64,000 nt of DNA from a virus (IMGVR_UViG_2974592485_000001:1-64000); one strand, 5' to 3'. Positions 1-13,588 are shown, counted from the first letter of the stretch. A program made the numbers and translations. The notes: generated from the letters alone by a model not told the origin.

Positions 1-57
1 GTCGACAGGGTGGGTAGATGAGAATGAGTCTCATTACCGCCCTCCCGTAGCCTCCTA

Positions 58-5999: not shown

Positions 6000-6157
6000 A
6001 TTACTACCTCCACTAAGTCGAATTCCTTAGTATCGGCACTACAGGACAAGTAATAACTTTTACCGTAGTAGAATGAATTCATGCGTAGTAACAGCGCTTC
6101 TATTTCTGCAACTGTTATGTAGCCGCTGAATTCATCAACAAAGATTTCTCTTTCCAT
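5990..6157 (-). CDS. small hypothetical protein (55 aa)
   Basis: MEREIFVDEFSG..., GAGG RBS. Confidence 0.6.
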   Translation of the reverse strand: MEREIFVDEFSGYITVAEIEALLLRMNSFYYGKSYYLSCSADTKEFDLVEVVICH

Positions 6158-6480: not shown

Positions 6481-6678
6481 TTACCAGTTTTCCTCTTGTC
6501 TTTCCGTTGCGATTTTGATGTTCACACGGTAAGGTTTAACGTTATGCTCTTGTTGCATATGGGATAATGTACCCTGTGCATCAGTAGCGTCATTAGTGTA
6601 GTAAGTTGCCTTACCCACGCTTACCCTGTATTCATCATACTGCTCACTAAAGATGATAGAGGATTTGACTAGAGACAT
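6481..6678 (-). CDS. hypothetical pre-early protein
   Basis: 65 aa, AGGA RBS; enclosed by a 25-bp IR. Confidence 0.7.
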   Translation of the reverse strand: MSLVKSSIIFSEQYDEYRVSVGKATYYTNDATDAQGTLSHMQQEHNVKPYRVNIKIATERQEENW

Positions 6679-6728
6679 GATAGTTTCCTATTTTAAGAGA
6701 AGCCTATCAAGCCACTATCTAGTTATAT

Positions 6729-6740
6729 TATTAAAGAGCG
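6729..6740 (-). promoter_or_regulatory. boxA element
   Basis: CGCTCTTTAATA on minus strand. Confidence 0.7.
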
Positions 6741-6806
6741 TTGCAGGATGAAACAAGGCGATGAATCCGCTTTCATGTTTCCGTGTTGCCGTCCTACGAG
6801 ATAAAT

Positions 6807-6833
6807 ATTATCAATACCCCGCACAGCCTGCAA
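6807..6833 (-). promoter_or_regulatory. putative sigma70 pre-early promoter
   Basis: TTGCAG...GATAAT on minus strand upstream of the boxA cassettes. Confidence 0.45.
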
Positions 6834-6849
6834 GCTGATATTTGTAAAG

Positions 6850-7560
6850 AAGTGTAAAGAGAATCAGGGGACGCTAGGATAGGAAACAGGCGCACGCGTG
6901 TAGCATAAAGAAAATACTCTGTCAAACTATTTCTGTTTTACTGTATATTTATACATGCCGCTAGAAGCTCCTAAAACGCATTCTAAGCGGTTTTCTTCCT
7001 AAGCTGTACATCGGTATCAAAACAAATAGATCTCACTAATGCGAGTAATTCTCATTTGGAACGAAAAGTTGGCATGGGTATTGCTTAATCTAGTAACCCC
7101 TTGTTTTACTGCGTATTTTCGTATGTCAAGCTATTTTTGAAAACCTGTATATTTATACATACCTCTAAAACGCTCTAAAACGCATTCTAAGCGGTTTTAG
7201 GGCTAGGCTGTACATCGGTATCAAAACAAATAGATCTCGATTTAGCACTTTTTGCCACATAAAAGACTTGACACCTTGAATTTATTGAGGTTAACCGTTT
7301 GCGTCTAAATGAGAACAGCTATCAAATGCTAATCACTAGCATTTAGATTATGCACCTACTTATACACAACCTGTATAGGCATACAGTACCCTAAAAGCTC
7401 TTGAGACGAGTTATCTACAGACTTATACACAGGTTATCCTACTGTATATTTGTACAGTAGTTCTGTACAGGACGTTATGCTAATGTACCTCTAAAACGCT
7501 CTAGGAAGCCCGTAGCGGCGTTTATTTTTCTAGGACGTATAATAGGCTTACTTTTAGCTG
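6850..7560. repeat. repeat-rich non-coding block 1 (iss-like) with LexA, DnaA, Fur-like and sigma54-like sites
   Basis: ~100-bp direct repeats (6940-7036, 7144-7248); CTG-N10-CAG at 7371 and 7442; TTATACACA at 7360 and 7423. Confidence 0.8.
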
Positions 7561-7620
7561 GTGGCCTCAAAAGAAAGGGCGCGATCGTTTGCGCCCTAAT
7601 AGTTTATTTGCTGTGTACCT

Positions 7621-7809
7621 CTAGTCCTCAATTACATAACTATCAATGACACCTGACGGGGGAGTTATTACACCCGCCTCGTTTAATAGCTCCAGCATGT
7701 AAGCCTGACGGTCATCTGACTTATGCGCAAAACCTTCAATACGTTTTGCCTCACTATCACCTATACCAATATTTATTTCTGTTTGGAAATATACGGTTAG
7801 CATTGGCAT
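7621..7809 (-). CDS. hypothetical protein
   Basis: 62 aa, GGAGG RBS. Confidence 0.7.
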   Translation of the reverse strand: MPMLTVYFQTEINIGIGDSEAKRIEGFAHKSDDRQAYMLELLNEAGVITPPSGVIDSYVIED

Positions 7810-7812
7810 AAA

Positions 7813-8013
7813 CTAGTCCTCCCGTTCATATCCGCCAATCTCTATATCGGCACGATTAAATGTTAAAGTTTCGGGCAGTATTTCCAACTCTATTAAGCGG
7901 GCTTCTTCCTGAGTCTCTGCATTCTGCAATCGGTCAAGTTGCTCTTGTGTAACTTCTAAGTCAACTCCGCTAGAAGATAATTCTATCCAGACACGCAGTT
8001 TTATTTTAGACAT
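7813..8013 (-). CDS. hypothetical protein
   Basis: start moved to MSKIKL (GAGG RBS). Confidence 0.65.
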   Translation of the reverse strand: MSKIKLRVWIELSSSGVDLEVTQEQLDRLQNAETQEEARLIELEILPETLTFNRADIEIGGYERED

Positions 8014-8191
8014 GAGTAATAACCTCATTTTCTGTAAAGTTTTCACATAGGTTAATAGAGTACCCGTCATCATCATATATCAAGGTGTCATATTGACCCA
8101 CCTCACATAAGGCACGGTTTTCATCAGTATCAGGTACAAGGAAAACGTTAACCTCTGTACGTGTTTGCATGATAGTAATATGTCCGCTCAT
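8006..8191 (-). CDS. hypothetical protein
   Basis: 61-aa ORF. Confidence 0.65.
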   Translation of the reverse strand: MSGHITIMQTRTEVNVFLVPDTDENRALCEVGQYDTLIYDDDGYSINLCENFTENEVITHV

Positions 8192-8324
8192 AGAGTTACC
8201 TATAAAACAAATATTAAAAAGACTAGGACAATGATTATCCAGCTAATAGAAGAGCGGGACAATAGCCTAGCACGGCGTTGGTGCGGGTTGTGTTTCCGCT
8301 GGCTTTGGGTACGCTGAATAAGTC

Positions 8325-8708
8325 TCATTTTCTTTCCCCTAATACTGCGTGAATTATCCCGTCACGCAGGAAGAATGATTCTGTATGTAAGTTAGCAAAC
8401 ATACAGAATATATCATCCCCTGTATCCTCCACGGTTAGGGCTTCTCCCGCATGTTGTATTGTAGCTATACCGTCATTCTCTAGGGATATGAGAATAAGGG
8501 TTAATACTTTGGCGTTAATTAAATAATTAGCACCATAGAAGTTAATGGTTATATTGCCTTTATAGTCAAATGGCAAAGTAGATAATGCACGCTTGAGCAT
8601 ATAAGGCAAATTAGATACAGACGATTGATCATAATAATCGTCCCCAATGTATATAGTAATAGGACGTCTAACAGCGACGTCCTTTAATATTTCTTTACTG
8701 AAATACAT
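8325..8708 (-). CDS. hypothetical protein
   Basis: 127-aa ORF, GGAG RBS. Confidence 0.7.
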   Translation of the reverse strand: MYFSKEILKDVAVRRPITIYIGDDYYDQSSVSNLPYMLKRALSTLPFDYKGNITINFYGANYLINAKVLTLILISLENDGIATIQHAGEALTVEDTGDDIFCMFANLHTESFFLRDGIIHAVLGERK

Positions 8709-8713
8709 TTATA

Positions 8714-9271
8714 TTACTCCCACACGATACGGGTAAACGTTCCATAGAGGTAAGAGGCTGAACGGATAAACCCGTCTACTAGGCGGATAATATCGTTGTG
8801 CTCCCCCGCCATACCATTAACAATCATACTGGTATTAGCTCTAATTAAAGAGCCATCCTGAACCAGCATATCTATTGCGAACATCTGACGTACTAGCGCG
8901 GATTCATCATCCCCACCTGCTGTGTAGCCCATATGGTAACTAGGGTTGAATAAGTATATGGTGCCACATACATTGTCATTTTCTTGCCATTCTAAATCAT
9001 CGGAGCCACAAGAATCGCAGGAAGTATCAGAACCTGACACCTCCCCGCACTCGATGCAGACGTTATCCCCCTCATACCCGAACGAACTAGCGTTTTCAAT
9101 AGCTTGCTCATGCGCGAATTCGTCCAAATTCTCCCCAGCGGCGAACCCTATTAGCTCCATGCTATCAGAGCCACAATATCCCGTAGTACATACAAGTAAC
9201 CCAATTAGGGGGCGGTCTGCAATGCTAGGAGCCGATACAGAGTTACGATAATCAGTTGATGATAAGCCCAT
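8714..9271 (-). CDS. hypothetical protein with zinc ribbon
   Basis: start MGLSSTD (GAGG RBS); CIEC...CDSC. Confidence 0.7.
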   Translation of the reverse strand: MGLSSTDYRNSVSAPSIADRPLIGLLVCTTGYCGSDSMELIGFAAGENLDEFAHEQAIENASSFGYEGDNVCIECGEVSGSDTSCDSCGSDDLEWQENDNVCGTIYLFNPSYHMGYTAGGDDESALVRQMFAIDMLVQDGSLIRANTSMIVNGMAGEHNDIIRLVDGFIRSASYLYGTFTRIVWE

Positions 9272-9281
9272 GATATGCCTC

Positions 9282-9587
9282 TTAAAATACGTCGGGGTTA
9301 ATGAAGATGTAGTCTTCAACACCATAATAGCTAGGGTTGAGCACTACTACATCATTGTTGCAAATTAAGTTTTTGCCATAGCCTACTAGCTCACCATCCT
9401 GTAGTAACGCCATAAGCCCATAGCCATAGTCTTGATATACTATGAAGATACCTTGTTGCGCCACCTTCTCCCAGCAATGGGGACTCCCCATAGATTTCCA
9501 TACTTCCAAATCGTCTACCCGTCCTAGTACATGATTTGCACTTGGTCGCGTACCAGACAACACCTCTAAAATTTCTTGTTCAGTCAT
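9282..9587 (-). CDS. hypothetical protein
   Basis: 101-aa ORF, GAGG RBS. Confidence 0.7.
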   Translation of the reverse strand: MTEQEILEVLSGTRPSANHVLGRVDDLEVWKSMGSPHCWEKVAQQGIFIVYQDYGYGLMALLQDGELVGYGKNLICNNDVVVLNPSYYGVEDYIFINPDVF

Positions 9588-9602
9588 GATTTCCTCACAA
9601 TT

Positions 9603-9614
9603 TGTTAAAGAGCG
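9603..9614 (-). promoter_or_regulatory. boxA element
   Basis: consensus CGCTCTTTAACA on minus strand. Confidence 0.7.
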
Positions 9615-9620
9615 GATAAA

Positions 9621-9652
9621 GAAAAAGCCCTAGAGAATTTCTCTAGGGCTTT
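9621..9652 (-). terminator. rho-independent terminator
   Basis: AAAGCCCTAGAGAA/TTCTCTAGGGCTTT stem with U tract on minus strand. Confidence 0.75.
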
Positions 9653-9684
9653 AGCATATCAGTTACTAGCTGTTAAGGCAAGAA

Positions 9685-10671
9685 TTACTCTTGTACTTCA
9701 CCTGACAGCTTAGCCAGCTTTTCCGCGCCTACACCGTTAACCACATCAGTGATCATCTGCTCAATGTTGAAACTCTGAATGATCTCAAGGGCGGCGGCTT
9801 GCATGGCTGCGTCAGACAGCACGACAGCCGCACGGTTATTGCTTGCATACTGCGCTACGGCAAAGGAGAACAAGTTAGCTACCACGGCGCGGCCTACAGG
9901 GGTGTCGATGTAGCCCTTAACAGCGTATGGCGCTTTGGTCTTGATCACATTAGTAACCTGAACCAAAGCGATGCGCCCCGCTTCCAGTTTAGCAGCGGAT
10001 ACAGCGGCGTTTTTGTTTGCAGCAACGATATTTTGAACTTTAGACATATTGGTATCTTCCTGTACAGGTTTAGTTTCGGTTAACCCACTAGTGACACCAG
10101 CGGGACGGGTAGAATTATTATTCATAGCTTCATCATTTGCAAGGGGTAATTCAACAAAATCAGAAAAGTTATAGTCATCGGGGCAAAATGACTTAGATCT
10201 CGCAATAAACTCTAGGGGTACTAAATGATTACCCATGTAGTACATACAAATATCTGTAACGTCTGCGAATTCAAAGTGATCAAGGTACTCGATACCGGAT
10301 AGCTCATCCCGCGAATAGTCCTGCGCCAACGATTTGTCGTTAGAACAAAATAGCCACGTATAAATATCACCTGACACGGATTTGCTCATTACAAAAGCGT
10401 CCGCGCGATTATGGCTAGTCTTAAAGCAGTCTTTAAAAAGCCACTGGTTACCGCAATAGCCAAATACAACCACCCCATGAGGAAGTTTCGATACTACATC
10501 GGCTAGGTGACATAAATCTGAAATGCCTAACCCTTCTAATGAGATACCGCCAGAAGATGCATCATTAGTCCGGTAGTCTAGTGACGCAGTAGTCCCTTGC
10601 TTTAAATTGGCAACCGCTCTTTTCCCTACAGGGGTAAGCTCACTTTCTATACCGCATAATAAAATACTCAT
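9685..10671 (-). CDS. T5-like pre-early protein with conserved Ala-rich C-terminal domain
   Basis: start likely MSILLC (GAGG RBS). Confidence 0.75.
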   Translation of the reverse strand: MSILLCGIESELTPVGKRAVANLKQGTTASLDYRTNDASSGGISLEGLGISDLCHLADVVSKLPHGVVVFGYCGNQWLFKDCFKTSHNRADAFVMSKSVSGDIYTWLFCSNDKSLAQDYSRDELSGIEYLDHFEFADVTDICMYYMGNHLVPLEFIARSKSFCPDDYNFSDFVELPLANDEAMNNNSTRPAGVTSGLTETKPVQEDTNMSKVQNIVAANKNAAVSAAKLEAGRIALVQVTNVIKTKAPYAVKGYIDTPVGRAVVANLFSFAVAQYASNNRAAVVLSDAAMQAAALEIIQSFNIEQMITDVVNGVGAEKLAKLSGEVQE

Positions 10672-10805
10672 AATACTAGCCTCAGTTTGTTTGTTACTAG
10701 GGACGCATACTTTATCAGACAAGAGCATGTAAAGTAAAGCTATCATAGGCTGATTTTGTTTGCTATACTTGGATTTGGGTATCCCTTATTTAAGGAGTTG
10801 CAAAG

Positions 10806-11036
10806 ATGAGAAGTCTAGGGTATGGGTCGTATGTGATTGAGGAACCAGTAGAATTTTTTATAGCGGCAACGCTGGAACTTGACAATATCCCCTCAGCCAG
10901 TAAGAGGGCAAACACGGCTAGGATGTGGGCGTATATGGCGGCAAGAGCAGAAAATTACCCATGTATTGTTACGTTCTTTTCCGAGGCTACGGGCGCAGTG
11001 GATACGGGGGCGGTGTTCAATGTTGCAAAAAGATAA
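10806..11036 (+). CDS. hypothetical pre-early protein
   Basis: AAGGAG RBS. Confidence 0.7.
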   Translation: MRSLGYGSYVIEEPVEFFIAATLELDNIPSASKRANTARMWAYMAARAENYPCIVTFFSEATGAVDTGAVFNVAKR

Positions 11037-11169
11037 GGTATTGAATCACTGGCTGTTTAAGCTGTTTTTATGGCTGGTGGCACTGGCGGGTATGTCAGCT
11101 TTCGGTATGGCGGCGCTGGCGTGGTTAATGGTAACAATATCAATGATTAAGACGGGGCTAGGGCTATGA
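11020..11169 (+). CDS. small membrane protein (49 aa)
   Basis: hydrophobic; ATGA-coupled to next gene. Confidence 0.55.
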   Translation: MLQKDKVLNHWLFKLFLWLVALAGMSAFGMAALAWLMVTISMIKTGLGL

Positions 11170-11405
11170 ATGATAACAATGACGAATCCTTGTATGAGCA
11201 GCGGTTATTAGTTGCTAGGTCAATCCTTGCGACGTTTCAATTAAGCGTAGTAAGAGCGGCAAGGGGTATGGATAACAACGCCTTAAACATAGAGGAAGTG
11301 GCAAAGGATATCATGACGGTGAATTGCGCTCCCCATGAGTCTATAGTCATGGCTGTTTACTATAAGTATCAAGACTATATGACTAAATGGGGGTATGATG
11401 TATGA
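11166..11405 (+). CDS. hypothetical protein
   Basis: 79 aa, coupled. Confidence 0.7.
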   Translation: MNDNNDESLYEQRLLVARSILATFQLSVVRAARGMDNNALNIEEVAKDIMTVNCAPHESIVMAVYYKYQDYMTKWGYDV

Positions 11406-11614
11406 GAGTGATTCAAGAAGTAACGCTAAAATTCGTGCCTCTAGAGGGTAAAGTTACCGACCTTCCTGTAGGTCACTATGTTGTTATTATGGCAGGAGAT
11501 AGGCGCGAGTATATGGAGGTAATTAACATCAGTAACGGGCGGCTTGCTATAGTAAATGGGCATTTCTATTTTGATATGGCTAACGTTACCCATTATGCAG
11601 TTTGGCCGGAATAG
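11402..11614 (+). CDS. hypothetical protein
   Basis: 70 aa, coupled. Confidence 0.7.
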   Translation: MRVIQEVTLKFVPLEGKVTDLPVGHYVVIMAGDRREYMEVINISNGRLAIVNGHFYFDMANVTHYAVWPE

Positions 11615-11624
11615 GGGGTACACA

Positions 11625-11717
11625 ATGCCTAAGTATGTATTCTACTTGCCCACTCTAATAATAGGGGGAGCGGCTTTATTAGCGGAACTGTTTAAGTATC
11701 TGGATGGCTTACTATGA
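11625..11717 (+). CDS. membrane microprotein (30 aa)
   Basis: MPKYVFYLPTLIIGGAALLAELF... Confidence 0.5.
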   Translation: MPKYVFYLPTLIIGGAALLAELFKYLDGLL

Positions 11718-11836
11718 CAATACGTGATCGTTTATGGTTTCTAGGTCTGTATGCCTTGTGCTTCATTATGGGCGCGGTAGTTGTAGCTATAGGCGCAGGG
11801 GTTCCAATTCTGGTAGGTAAGGGGTTAGGACTATGA
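11714..11836 (+). CDS. membrane microprotein (40 aa)
   Basis: MTIRDRLWFLGLYALCFIMG..., ATGA overlap. Confidence 0.55.
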   Translation: MTIRDRLWFLGLYALCFIMGAVVVAIGAGVPILVGKGLGL

Positions 11837-11940
11837 GTAGGGATGAGAAAGAGATGGCTTGCCTACTTGCTGTTATCATAGTCCTCTTGATGTTATGGGC
11901 TACCGTAGCAGGGGCGGCAATATTGCAGAGATTCCTTTAG
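11833..11940 (+). CDS. membrane microprotein (35 aa)
   Basis: MSRDEKEMACLLAVIIVLLMLW..., ATGA overlap. Confidence 0.55.
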   Translation: MSRDEKEMACLLAVIIVLLMLWATVAGAAILQRFL

Positions 11941-11946
11941 CAGACT

Positions 11947-11970
11947 ACCCGCTCCGGCGGGTTTTCTTTT
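11947..11970 (+). terminator. rho-independent terminator
   Basis: ACCCGC-TCCG-GCGGGT followed by TTTCTTTT. Confidence 0.8.
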
Positions 11971-12019
11971 GCCTGTACCTGCGTGACCCCTGCCTAATGT
12001 ATACCCCCATAAATTAAAC

Positions 12020-12724
12020 CTCACCATGGCCTTTCTAGGAGCTTCTAGAGCTATATCAGGATGGTATGCTACCAGAAACTACTGTATATTTATCCAGTAG
12101 GATAACCTGTTGATAAGTCTGTTAATAACTCGATTCAGGCTGTTTCATGAGTCAAGCATATTTACAAAACTGTATAAGTCTGTGGATAACTTTTCTTGTA
12201 GCACAAAACACTTTTAGCATTTGTCAAGTATTATTTTAACTACTGTATGTATATACATACCGCTAGAACGCTCTAGGAAGCCCGCTACGCTGTTTTTGTA
12301 TCGAGGCTGTATGTTAGTATCAAAACAAATAGATCTCGATTTAGCATTTTATGTATAGACAGTAGTTAAAATCTATGCTCCCCCAAAATACCGCTTGACT
12401 TCAAAATATTTCTGTGATTTACCAAAAAAGCGCTTGACTTGCCCTGCGGGGCATGATAAGCGCGACTCTGGATACTAGTAGACTACCATACTAGGAATTG
12501 CCTAGCACACTCCACGCAGAAAATCAAATGAGAAAATTTCACTTGACTGTTACCGGTAACATATGGTAGGCAGGTAAATGCGAATGATTCTTACTCAACA
12601 AGGTAAATGCGAATGAGAACGATTATCATTTACAAACGGGAATGATTCTCGTTTACAAACCGAAATGAGAATCAACTGCAAATGCGAATGATTCTCATTC
12701 AACTTCCGAAATAATTCTCATTTG
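12020..12724. promoter_or_regulatory. repeat-rich block 2 (iss-like): LexA, DnaA, GntR-like sites and Fur-box array
   Basis: CTGTATATTTATCCAG at 12082; TGTGGATAA at 12181; TGTTACCGGTAACA at 12548; six 7-1-7 Fur-like boxes at 12579-12720. Confidence 0.75.
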
Positions 12725-12729
12725 CGTAT

Positions 12730-13338
12730 GTGCATATCCGACATATGTGCGAATCCGATAGTAGTTTGAAAATGTGCAAATCCGACCCTTGTGCGAATCC
12801 GATGATATTTTGAAAAGGTGCAAATCCGATTGGTCTGCTAGAAAGTGCAAAACCGATGGGAAAATTTTGGTGAAAAATTTTGCCCGAAAACTGATAAGTT
12901 TGGGAAAGAAAAACGATAAGTAATACTATGTGCAAATCCGATAGTATAAGTTGAAATTCTAGGAATTGAAAGTGCAAAACCGATGGAATTTTTGTGGAGT
13001 TCGATTGAAAGGTAGGTGGATGTATAAGTTAAAAGATTGAGGTGAGAGAGATGTTTGAAGGCTAGGGAAGACGCTAAGAGGGGCGCAGGTTTCTCTTCGG
13101 GGTGACAAGAGTATTGCCGCGTTTTTGGGGATAATTGGAGGTTTGGGGAGGTAGTTGGAGAAGATAAAATATTTTTTGCTTTTTTGGGGGCAAACTACTT
13201 GACTTTTCAAAAATTCTTGCGCCCCTCTACTCACTTACTTTTGTGGAACGCAAATTTATTCCAAGAAATAGTTTTATTGGCTATATTTTAAGTAGGGAAA
13301 AACTTAACTCTTGTGAATAACACTATGTGCAAAACCGA
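12730..13338 (+). repeat. nine dispersed copies of GTGC(A/G)(A/T)A(T/A)CCGA
   Basis: copies at 12730, 12747, 12774, 12791, 12818, 12845, 12930, 12972, 13327. Confidence 0.85.
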
Positions 13339-13497
13339 TGGAATTTTTGAGAGTTTCAGAAATTTAGTCCAGAAAATAACCGCCCTCCCATAAACCCCCC
13401 TATCCGGTAAACCGCCCTATATACTTTTTACAAAAAAGCGCCCAGACTGCCGTACGGCGAATAGGGCGAGTATATGGTTTGATATGGGAATACTAGA

Positions 13498-13588
13498 ATA
13501 TAGTTGAAAAGGACATTGATAGTATATAGTTGAAAAGGACATTGATAGTATATAGTTGAAAAGGACATTGATAGTATATAGTTGAAAA
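13498..13588 (+). repeat. 26-bp tandem repeat x3.5
   Basis: ATATAGTTGAAAAGGACATTGATAGT. Confidence 0.95.

What the first reader, a model, noticed from the sequence alone, without database searches (positions are those of the whole stretch)
6940..12724. First-injected DNA carries a battery of host-regulator operators (LexA, DnaA, Fur, GntR, sigma54): possible protein sponge or injection brake
Seen: SOS boxes CTG-N10-CAG at 7371, 7442 and 12082, with one-mismatch copies at 6941, 7145 and 12243. DnaA boxes TTATACACA at 7360 and 7423, perfect TGTGGATAA at 12181, and near-matches at 7411 and 12108. A sigma54-type TGGCA-N6-TTGC at 7070-7084, GntR-type TGTTACCGGTAACA at 12548-12561, a weaker PurR-like site at 7289-7304, and Fur-like boxes. 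The sites sit in gene-free blocks, not in front of obvious regulated genes. Established: the T5 injection-stop region has repeats and DnaA boxes. Inference: the mix suggests loading or titration of host DNA-binding proteins, as a ratchet or stop for two-step transfer, DNA protection, regulon derepression or host-state sensing.
Basis: partly seen in the sequence, partly recalled or inferred. Interest (0 to 1): 0.78.

Follow-up and report, generated by a model that had tools for sequence, protein, structure and literature searches.

The report
Host-protein sites in T5-type injection-stop repeats
The two gene-free blocks are this phage's copies of the known repeat regions where phage T5 pauses DNA injection; their LexA and DnaA sites (and a sigma-54 site in this lineage) are real and conserved, the GntR and PurR sites are chance-level, and a "protein sponge" role is unlikely.

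Summary
The window is the left end of a T5-like phage, collinear with Pectobacterium phage My1. Blocks 6926-7620 and 11941-13416 are homologues of T5 Repeat Regions 2 and 3, the injection-stop region.

- **LexA:** the sites are far above chance. All six genome 20-mers with 15 or more of 20 matches to the SOS-box consensus lie in these blocks, two at 18/20. E. coli K-12 has only three sites that good, all SOS operators. The box equals T5 "palindrome D" and is kept beside DnaA boxes across four Demerecviridae lineages.
- **DnaA:** the boxes are real but already published (Davison 2020), as is the DnaA brake idea.
- **Sigma-54:** the site is unremarkable in this window alone. It is conserved in My1, Vibrio phage JSF10 and metagenome relatives, with its spacing preserved.
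- **Fur:** the likeness is borderline.
- **GntR and PurR:** these sites fail multiple-testing or conservation checks.
- **Sponge reading:** titration is implausible on stoichiometry.

My best reading is a landing pad for host proteins already present in the cell, which builds an architectural complex on the last-entering first-step DNA. No binding has been tested. This scan had already noted the LexA/DnaA and sigma-54 sites on other T5-like genomes.

The parts
6920..7034 (+). Type-II repeat unit, copy 1. It runs TGTCAA, then a LexA-like box at 6939-6958 (16/20, right half ACAT not ACAG), then an AAAACGC...GCGGTTTT palindrome, then the ATCAAAACAAATAGATCTC block.
   Evidence: Repeat families D1-D5. 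LexA scan. Aligned to My1 and Vibrio JSF10.
7070..7085 (+). Sigma-54-type -24/-12 element, TGGCAT-N5-TTGCT, about 130 nt downstream of type-II unit 1.
   Evidence: It is the only such match in the 106-kb genome. My1 has TGGCAC-N5-TTGCT in the same alignment column, with a diverged spacer. JSF10 has one at the same relative place. In My1 and JSF10 the only genome-wide matches lie in the first-step-transfer (FST) non-coding blocks. Metagenome relatives carry 7075 T>C, and one carries paired indels that keep the spacing.
7124..7238 (+). Type-II repeat unit, copy 2, with a LexA-like box at 7143-7162 (14/20).
7348..7388 (+). IRC-type module: a DnaA box pair 3 bp apart (7348-7356 with one mismatch, 7360-7368 consensus), then a LexA-like box at 7369-7388 (15/20, CTGT-N8-ACAG).
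   Evidence: Inverted repeat I11 pairs it with 12171-12189.
7402..7462 (+). IRD-type arm: a DnaA box pair (7411-7419 with one mismatch, 7423-7431 consensus), then a LexA box at 7440-7459 (18/20).
   Evidence: Inverted repeat I1 pairs it with 12077-12137 (61 nt, 84%)..
7576..7597 (.). GC-rich hairpin that looks like a terminator on both strands and closes the block.
12077..12137 (+). IRD'-type arm: a LexA box at 12080-12099 (18/20), then two DnaA-type boxes 3 bp apart (12108-12116 and 12120-12128, one mismatch each, on the minus strand).
   Evidence: Window 12080-12129 is the part matched at 86-96% identity in the most distant of the 548 T5-like phage records. It is homologous to T5 palindrome D plus IRD'.
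12165..12196 (+). IRC'-type arm: a weak DnaA-like 9-mer, 3 bp, then the perfect TGTGGATAA at 12181-12189.
   Evidence: Inverted repeat I3 and direct repeat D19 with 61-nt spacing, the same as the spacing of T5 direct repeat B.
12222..12364 (+). Type-II repeat unit, copy 3, with LexA-like boxes at 12241-12260 (16/20) and 12345-12364 (15/20).
   Evidence: Aligned to My1.
12547..12562 (.). GntR-operator-like palindrome, 11 of 12 specified positions of ATGTTA-N4-TAACAT. Judged chance-level.
   Evidence: Two matches in the window against 0.46 expected, and 7 of 100 shuffles reach that. It lies in an insertion absent from My1. No E. coli homologue.
12572..12724 (.). Array of AATGA-N3-TCATT-type palindromes. 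This is the Fur-like array, homologous to the T5 direct repeat C and palindrome E-I region.
   Evidence: Families D11, D13 and D15. Fur scores of 13-15/19. T5 sequence.
12738..13340 (+). Eight GTGCRAAWCCGA iterons, equal to T5 direct repeat D, all in one orientation. They overlap DnaA-like 9-mers.
   Evidence: T5 annotation and sequence.

Best explanation
The two blocks are this phage's versions of T5 Repeat Region 2 (IRC-spacer-IRD) and Repeat Region 3 (IRD'-spacer-IRC' plus downstream repeat arrays). These are the conserved cis-acting DNA at and before the injection stop signal.

The core module is a near-consensus LexA box that abuts a phased pair of DnaA boxes. It is present in inverted orientation 4.6 kb apart. 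This lineage adds three copies of a roughly 115-bp unit with a half-degenerate LexA-like box, and one sigma-54 -24/-12 element.

Most likely mechanism (inferred): as first-step DNA enters, host proteins already in the cell (LexA dimers, DnaA-ATP, and here sigma-54 RNA polymerase as a silent closed complex) load on these sites. They build a bulky complex, possibly pairing the two blocks, on the last DNA to enter. That complex organises or anchors the DNA during the pause, until the phage proteins A1 and A2 act. It is an architectural use of host proteins, not titration of them.

Shown here: identity with the T5 regions, the quality of the sites, and their conservation. Inferred: that the proteins bind, and any role in the pause.
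For: Identity:
- The gene order (dmp, A1, A2) matches My1 and T5.
- The non-coding blocks align to My1 at 64-78% along their whole length, while the genes between them align only in patches.
- The same inverted repeats, DnaA pairs 3 bp apart, 61-63-nt repeat spacing and D-type iterons occur as in T5.

LexA:
- All six genome 20-mers with at least 15/20 matches lie in the blocks.
- None of 2000 shuffles of either block reaches the observed counts.
- In E. coli K-12 only five sites reach 17/20, and they sit at sulA, umuDC, sbmC, dinD and tisB/istR.
- In 47 T5-like loci anchored on the unrelated D iterons, the only sites at 16/20 or better are the Repeat Region 3 copy (18-19/20, always followed by DnaA-type boxes) and the Repeat Region 2 copy.
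- The box is also present in Vibrio, Proteus and Erwinia phages.
- CTG and CAG are nearly invariant, while the centre flips between AA and TT.

DnaA: counts exceed all 500 shuffles. Davison describes the same boxes in 25 phages.

Sigma-54.

Host factor needed: from my own knowledge, not tested here, the stop does not need phage protein synthesis and does not occur in vitro with purified receptor.
Against: - No binding data exist for any of these proteins on this DNA.
- Proteins bound to DNA already inside the cell do not obviously stop further entry.
- T5-type phages plate on recA hosts (my own knowledge), so LexA cleavage cannot be the restart signal.
- The three type-II boxes keep ACAT instead of ACAG in window, My1 and JSF10. 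That looks like selection for something other than optimal LexA binding.
- T5 itself lacks the sigma-54 site.
- A Salmonella screen found that an rpoN rpoS double mutant restores infection by a T5-like phage, so sigma-54 is not essential there (PMC8744999).
- All known hosts share one LexA motif, so conservation cannot separate LexA from a phage protein of like specificity.
Confidence: 0.4

Rival explanations
1. The palindromes and repeats are binding sites for phage proteins, such as A2 (a known DNA-binding protein), A1, a virion protein or terminase. Their likeness to host operators is then mimicry or coincidence of specificity.
For: - The type-II boxes conserve ACAT, a poor LexA half-site, in three lineages.
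- The Fur-like palindrome type also occurs about 20 nt from the left genome end, within a terminal element conserved in My1, JSF10 and partly T5. That points to a phage DNA-end function.
- The Vibrio phage replaces the Fur-like array with unrelated repeats.
- A2 is conserved with the blocks.
Against: - Matches of 18-19/20 to the full 20-nt LexA consensus, including the flanking TA, are better than any E. coli site. Such a site would bind LexA whatever else it binds.
- The neighbouring boxes fit the DnaA consensus.
- The stop needs no new phage protein (my own knowledge).
- The A2 model is all-helical and has no significant structural match, so nothing links it to LexA-type recognition.
Confidence: 0.2
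2. The sites control transcription. LexA, and sigma-54 with a host activator, would gate expression of a non-coding RNA or of accessory pre-early genes according to host state (SOS, nitrogen or membrane stress).
For: - In JSF10 the sigma-54-type element lies upstream of plus-strand pre-early genes.
- The type-II unit lies about 100-160 nt upstream of the sigma-54 element, the usual distance for an activator site.
- A weak sigma-70-like pair (TTGAGA, 17 nt, TATACA) precedes the 7440 box (read).
Against: - No sigma-70-type promoter was found in 6700-7700, against 2.5 expected.
- In the window the sigma-54 element faces about 480 nt with no ORF over 33 aa, then a terminator.
- The phage encodes no sigma-54 activator.
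- In T5 the LexA boxes lie about 200 nt from the annotated promoters.
- No Rfam family matches there.
Confidence: 0.15
3. Repeat Region 3 mainly serves genome-end biology: terminase recognition, the cut at the terminal-repeat boundary, or repeat duplication. Host proteins would act as bending helpers, as IHF does at lambda cos.
For: - In T5 the region spans the end of the terminal repeat at 10139. In the right repeat it therefore lies within about 1 kb of the physical genome end.
- Iteron arrays such as the eight D-type repeats are typical terminase small-subunit sites (my own knowledge).
Against: - This does not explain the inverted second copy 4.6 kb inside the repeat.
- It does not explain why the LexA-DnaA module rather than the iterons is the most widely conserved part.
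Confidence: 0.12
4. One reading: the sites titrate LexA, DnaA, Fur and other regulators and so derepress host regulons.
For: Many site types are clustered in DNA that enters first.
Against: - Stoichiometry: 2 strong and about 4 weak LexA sites, about 8-12 DnaA-type boxes and one sigma-54 site per entering genome. Against these stand roughly 1300 LexA, over 1000 DnaA and several thousand Fur molecules per cell (my own knowledge).
- Host DNA is degraded within minutes, so derepression would have little to act on.
- The GntR and PurR members of the supposed battery are chance-level.
Confidence: 0.04

Closest known systems
Phage T5 Repeat Regions 2 and 3: IRC-spacer-IRD, IRD'-spacer-IRC', palindrome D, direct repeats B, C and D, and the injection stop signal (GenBank AY587007 annotation; Davison, bioRxiv 10.1101/866236)
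   Same: - The position in the left terminal repeat is the same.
- There is an inverted repeat pair with DnaA boxes in pairs 3 bp apart.
- The palindrome abuts the boxes.
- The B-type repeat spacing is 61-63 nt.
- An AATGA-N3-TCATT-type array follows, then GTGCAAATCCGA iterons.
   Different: - Three copies of a roughly 115-bp unit carry a half-degenerate LexA-like box.
- There is an extra LexA-like box in the IRC-type arm.
- There is a sigma-54 -24/-12 element, shared with My1 and Vibrio JSF10 but absent from T5, Erwinia KEY and Proteus PL1.
- The genes between the blocks are mostly on the minus strand.
- None of the papers I could read calls palindrome D a LexA site. The 2015 Davison review, and the 1987 and 2005 T5 papers that I recall as the first descriptions of this region, were not available to me.
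E. coli SOS operators (sulA, umuDC, sbmC, dinD, tisB/istR)
   Same: It is a 20-nt palindrome with CTGT-N8-ACAG and an AT-rich centre. The window sites match the consensus as well as the three best K-12 sites, at 18/20.
   Different: It does not overlap a recognisable promoter or precede a gene. It is always coupled to DnaA-type boxes.
DnaA box clusters that load DnaA away from oriC (datA, DARS) and Davison's DnaA membrane-brake model
   Same: It has phased, same-orientation boxes that mix consensus and one-mismatch forms.
   Different: It lies on a virulent phage's first-injected DNA and is paired with a LexA box. No origin function is expected, since T5 origins map mid-genome.
Sigma-54 promoters and silent sigma-54 binding sites
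   Same: It has -24 TGGCA(C/T) and -12 TTGC at exact spacing, with the spacing conserved while the spacer sequence changes.
   Different: No downstream gene in this window, no phage activator, and no identified activator site.

Membership tests
T5-type Repeat Regions 2/3 (injection-stop region) | Lies in the left terminal repeat, to the right of dmp, A1 and A2, with non-coding blocks flanking an accessory gene block | tested here: met
   The gene order and A2 identity (58% to T5) match.
T5-type Repeat Regions 2/3 (injection-stop region) | Long inverted repeat pair carrying DnaA-type boxes in pairs 3 bp apart | tested here: met
   Inverted repeats I1, I3 and I11. Box pairs at 7348/7360, 7411/7423, 12108/12120 and 12169/12181.
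T5-type Repeat Regions 2/3 (injection-stop region) | Downstream GTGCAAATCCGA (D-type) iterons | tested here: met
   Eight copies lie at 12747-13338. T5 has nine.
T5-type Repeat Regions 2/3 (injection-stop region) | DNA transfer pauses here | not testable with these tools
   Needs infection and shear experiments.
LexA operator (SOS box) | CTGT-N8-ACAG palindrome with consensus similarity in the range of proven operators | tested here: met
   Two sites at 18/20 and one at 15/20. In K-12 only five sites reach 17/20 and all are SOS operators.
LexA operator (SOS box) | Overlaps or adjoins the promoter of a regulated gene | tested here: not met
   No sigma-70-like promoter in 6700-7700 and no real ORF in the blocks.
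LexA operator (SOS box) | Bound by LexA | not testable with these tools
   Needs EMSA, footprinting or ChIP.
DnaA box cluster | TTWTNCACA matches enriched over composition | tested here: met
   Five perfect boxes in 2.2 kb, of 12 in 106 kb. At one mismatch or fewer, the counts exceed all 500 shuffles in both blocks.
Sigma-54 promoter | -24 GG and -12 GC elements at fixed spacing, conserved in relatives | tested here: met
   Not significant in the window alone (P=0.35). It is conserved in position and spacing in My1, JSF10 and metagenome relatives.
Sigma-54 promoter | Activator available and a gene or RNA downstream | tested here: inconclusive
   No phage activator. No ORF before the terminator in the window. 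JSF10 has genes downstream. Host activators were not examined.
Fur box | Match to the 19-bp consensus above background | tested here: inconclusive
   The best score is 15/19, equalled at four places outside the blocks. Shuffle P values are 0.012 and 0.003. The array is conserved in enterobacterial phages but not in Vibrio JSF10.
GntR operator | ATGTTA-N4-TAACAT match above chance and conserved | tested here: not met
   It matches 11/12 positions, but 7 of 100 shuffles reach the observed count. It is absent from My1. The consensus is taken from memory.
PurR box | 16-bp palindrome ACGCAAACGTTTGCGT | tested here: not met
   It matches 12/16 with only the right half, P=0.07.

The most novel reading that the evidence does not exclude
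LexA, DnaA and (in this lineage) sigma-54 RNA polymerase, all present before infection, are the long-sought host factors that physically hold T5-type DNA at the first-step boundary. The conserved LexA-DnaA module would then be the injection stop signal itself.
Probability: 0.15. Interest if true: 0.85.

Novelty: new variant of a known kind. Interest (0 to 1): 0.55.

Why it matters
Why T5 stops injecting after 8% of its genome has been unexplained since the 1960s. Papers from 2023 and 2026 still say the repeat region's role is untested. Naming specific host proteins whose near-consensus sites are conserved exactly there turns the puzzle into cheap experiments: footprinting, ChIP, host mutants and edited phages. 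dnaA is essential and lexA nulls are lethal without sulA (my own knowledge). Transposon screens such as PMC8744999 would therefore have missed both. The sigma-54 element adds a lineage-specific variant that can be tested in Pectobacterium and Vibrio phages.

Tried and rejected
- **A2 as a LexA-like binder:** Pfam gave nothing. An AlphaFold model from 20 homologues (pLDDT 81.6, all-helical) had no Foldseek PDB match at E<=0.001.
- **More close relatives:** The search for related loci with A2 in viral contigs found none. A 16-nt pattern from the type-II unit returned mostly unrelated contigs.
- **Expression data:** no RNA holder is listed for the stretch.
- **Rfam:** nothing relevant.
- **GntR-palindrome segment against E. 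coli genomes:** no match.
- **IHF consensus:** not enriched.
- **LexA-cleavage timer for restart:** rejected, because T5-type phages grow on recA hosts (my own knowledge).
- **Literature:** I could not obtain Davison 2015 (PMC4743489), nor the 1987 and 2005 T5 papers that I recall as the first descriptions of this region. "Not in print" therefore holds only for the papers I could search.

Full report
**What the DNA is**

The window is bases 1-64000 of a 106,185-bp virus record. Its first 16 kb are collinear with the left terminal repeat of Pectobacterium phage My1 (Demerecviridae). The genes dmp, A1 and A2 lie on the minus strand, followed by small genes and two long gene-free blocks. A2 is 58% identical to T5 A2.

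Block 1 (6926-7620) and block 2 (11941-13416) align to My1 along their whole length, at 64-78% identity. The genes between them align only in patches. Davison noted the same pattern for T5-like phages: non-coding repeat regions better kept than neighbouring genes.

The T5 annotation and sequence show that block 1 corresponds to Repeat Region 2 (IRC-spacer-IRD). Block 2 corresponds to Repeat Region 3: palindrome D, IRD'-spacer-IRC', direct repeats B, C and D, and the injection stop region.

Features shared with T5:
- A 61-nt inverted repeat, 7402-7462 against 12077-12137.
- DnaA-type boxes in pairs 3 bp apart.
- A 61-63-nt spacing of the box pairs (T5 repeat B at 9357 and 9418).
- An array of AATGA-N3-TCATT-type palindromes.
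- Eight GTGCRAAWCCGA iterons.

**Checking the observation**

To control for motif hunting, I scored 20 transcription-factor consensus sequences against 1000 dinucleotide-preserving shuffles of the two blocks.

| Factor | Result against shuffles | Verdict |
|---|---|---|
| LexA | P<0.001 for best score and for count | Clears Bonferroni |
| DnaA | Count P<0.001 | Clears Bonferroni |
| Fur | 0.012 and 0.003 | Borderline |
| GntR | One 11/12 site, P=0.007 | Fails Bonferroni |
| PurR | 0.07 | Not significant |
| Sigma-54 | 0.35 | Not significant in the window alone |
| IHF | Not enriched | Not significant |

**LexA**

All six 20-mers in the whole genome with 15 or more of 20 matches to the SOS-box consensus lie in the two blocks. 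None of 2000 shuffles of either block reaches the observed counts. The sites at 7440 and 12080 score 18/20.

As a base rate, the E. coli K-12 chromosome has only five sites at 17/20 or better and three at 18/20. These lie directly upstream of sulA, umuDC, sbmC, dinD and tisB/istR.

T5 palindrome D (9330-9349) scores 19/20, and the IRD copy at 6135 scores 16/20. I took 47 T5-like loci from IMG/VR, anchored only on the unrelated D iterons. In them, the only sites at 16/20 or better are the Repeat Region 3 copy and the Repeat Region 2 copy. The Repeat Region 3 copy scores 18-19/20 in the Tequintavirus-type loci and 16/20 in two divergent metagenome contigs. It is always followed by DnaA-type boxes.

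The module is also present in Vibrio phage JSF10, Proteus phage PL1 and Erwinia phage KEY. Across distinct variants, CTG and CAG are nearly invariant, while the two centre positions flip between AA and TT. A BLAST of 12030-12360 finds 548 phage records. In the most distant of them, only 12080-12129, the box plus the first DnaA pair, still matches, at 86-96%.

No paper I could search links these sites to LexA. I could not read the 2015 Davison review, nor the 1987 and 2005 T5 papers that I recall as the first descriptions of this region. Earlier follow-ups in this scan reached the same reading on other T5-like genomes. Those are not independent evidence.

**A caveat on the extra boxes**

The three copies of the roughly 115-bp type-II unit (6920, 7124, 12222) carry CTGT...ACAT, not ACAG. 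This form is kept in My1 and in the Vibrio phage. It looks like selection for something other than best LexA binding.

**DnaA**

Five of the genome's twelve perfect TTWTNCACA matches lie in the 2.2 kb of blocks. Counts at one mismatch or fewer exceed all 500 shuffles. This is the published observation of eight boxes in 25 phages, together with the membrane-bound DnaA brake proposal. A 2023 paper states the boxes' role is untested.

**Sigma-54**

The site at 7070 (TGGCAT-N5-TTGCT) is the only one in the genome and is unremarkable on its own. Conservation changes that picture:
- My1 has TGGCAC-N5-TTGCT in the same alignment column, with a diverged spacer.
- JSF10 has one at the same distance after its type-II unit, and a second beside its Repeat Region 3 boxes.
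- In the complete My1 and JSF10 genomes, these are the only matches to TGGCAY-N5-TTGCW.
- Metagenome relatives at about 96% identity carry 7075 T>C, which gives TGGCAC. One has paired single-base indels inside the spacer that keep the spacing.
- T5, KEY and PL1 lack the site.
- The phage encodes no sigma-54 activator.
- In the window the element faces about 480 nt without a real ORF, then a hairpin.

**Fur, GntR and PurR**

- **Fur:** the Fur-like array is a real repeat array, homologous to the T5 repeat C and palindrome E-I region. Its best Fur score of 15/19 is equalled at four places elsewhere in the genome. The Vibrio phage has unrelated repeats there.
- **GntR:** the palindrome lies in a segment absent from My1. 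It has no E. coli homologue and is within chance.
- **PurR:** the site is a half-site only.

**How it most likely works**

The sponge idea fails on stoichiometry; the protein numbers are from my own knowledge. Operator function is not supported, because no sigma-70-like promoter or gene is in place.

From my own knowledge, the stop needs no phage protein synthesis and does not occur with purified receptor. That points to a host factor. My best reading is that abundant host proteins already in the cell load on the inverted modules and build an architectural complex on the last-entering first-step DNA. I put this at about 0.4.

Rivals:
- Phage proteins bind these sites.
- LexA and sigma-54 control transcription.
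- The region serves genome-end or packaging functions.

A2 gave no structural hint either way.

Noticed in passing
window 12738-13340; L053 (Vibrio JSF10) 10166-10300: The D-type iterons overlap DnaA-like 9-mers (TGTGCAAAT or TGTGCAAAA on the plus strand), all in the same orientation as the DnaA boxes of the arms. One window iteron (13326) and one Vibrio iteron give the perfect consensus TTTTGCACA. The iteron array may be a further run of weak DnaA sites.
   Followed up: partly
window 19-45; L001 19-45; L053 2720-2750; L005 20-45: A conserved element ending in AGTCTCATTACCGCC lies about 20-45 nt from the physical left end. In the window it forms an AATGAGTCTCATT palindrome of the same type as the Fur-like array at 12572-12724.
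   Followed up: partly
window 12394-12470, 12542, 13198, 7267: There are repeated CTTGACW (-35-like) hexamers without a good -10. One sits in a 45-nt block at 12426-12470, with a small GC hairpin, that differs from My1 at a single base.
   Followed up: no
window 6500-13500: Contigs in runs labelled root, food-fermentation and wastewater metagenomes cover parts of this stretch. They cover the non-coding blocks more fully than the genes between them. One run has contigs that join 7255 to 12403, and 7480 to 12066 on opposite strands. These joins are probably rearrangement or assembly collapse across the repeats.
   Followed up: no
PMC8744999: In a Salmonella genome-wide screen, rpoN, himA, himD and glnDLG mutants resist the T5-like phage Aji_GE. 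The authors attribute this to raised RpoS activity, and an added rpoS deletion restores infection.
   Followed up: no
window 7621-10746 and 10806-11940: The accessory genes between the two blocks include DUF7566 (9685-10746). Most of them lack any Pfam match, and they diverge far more from My1 than the flanking non-coding DNA does.
   Followed up: partly
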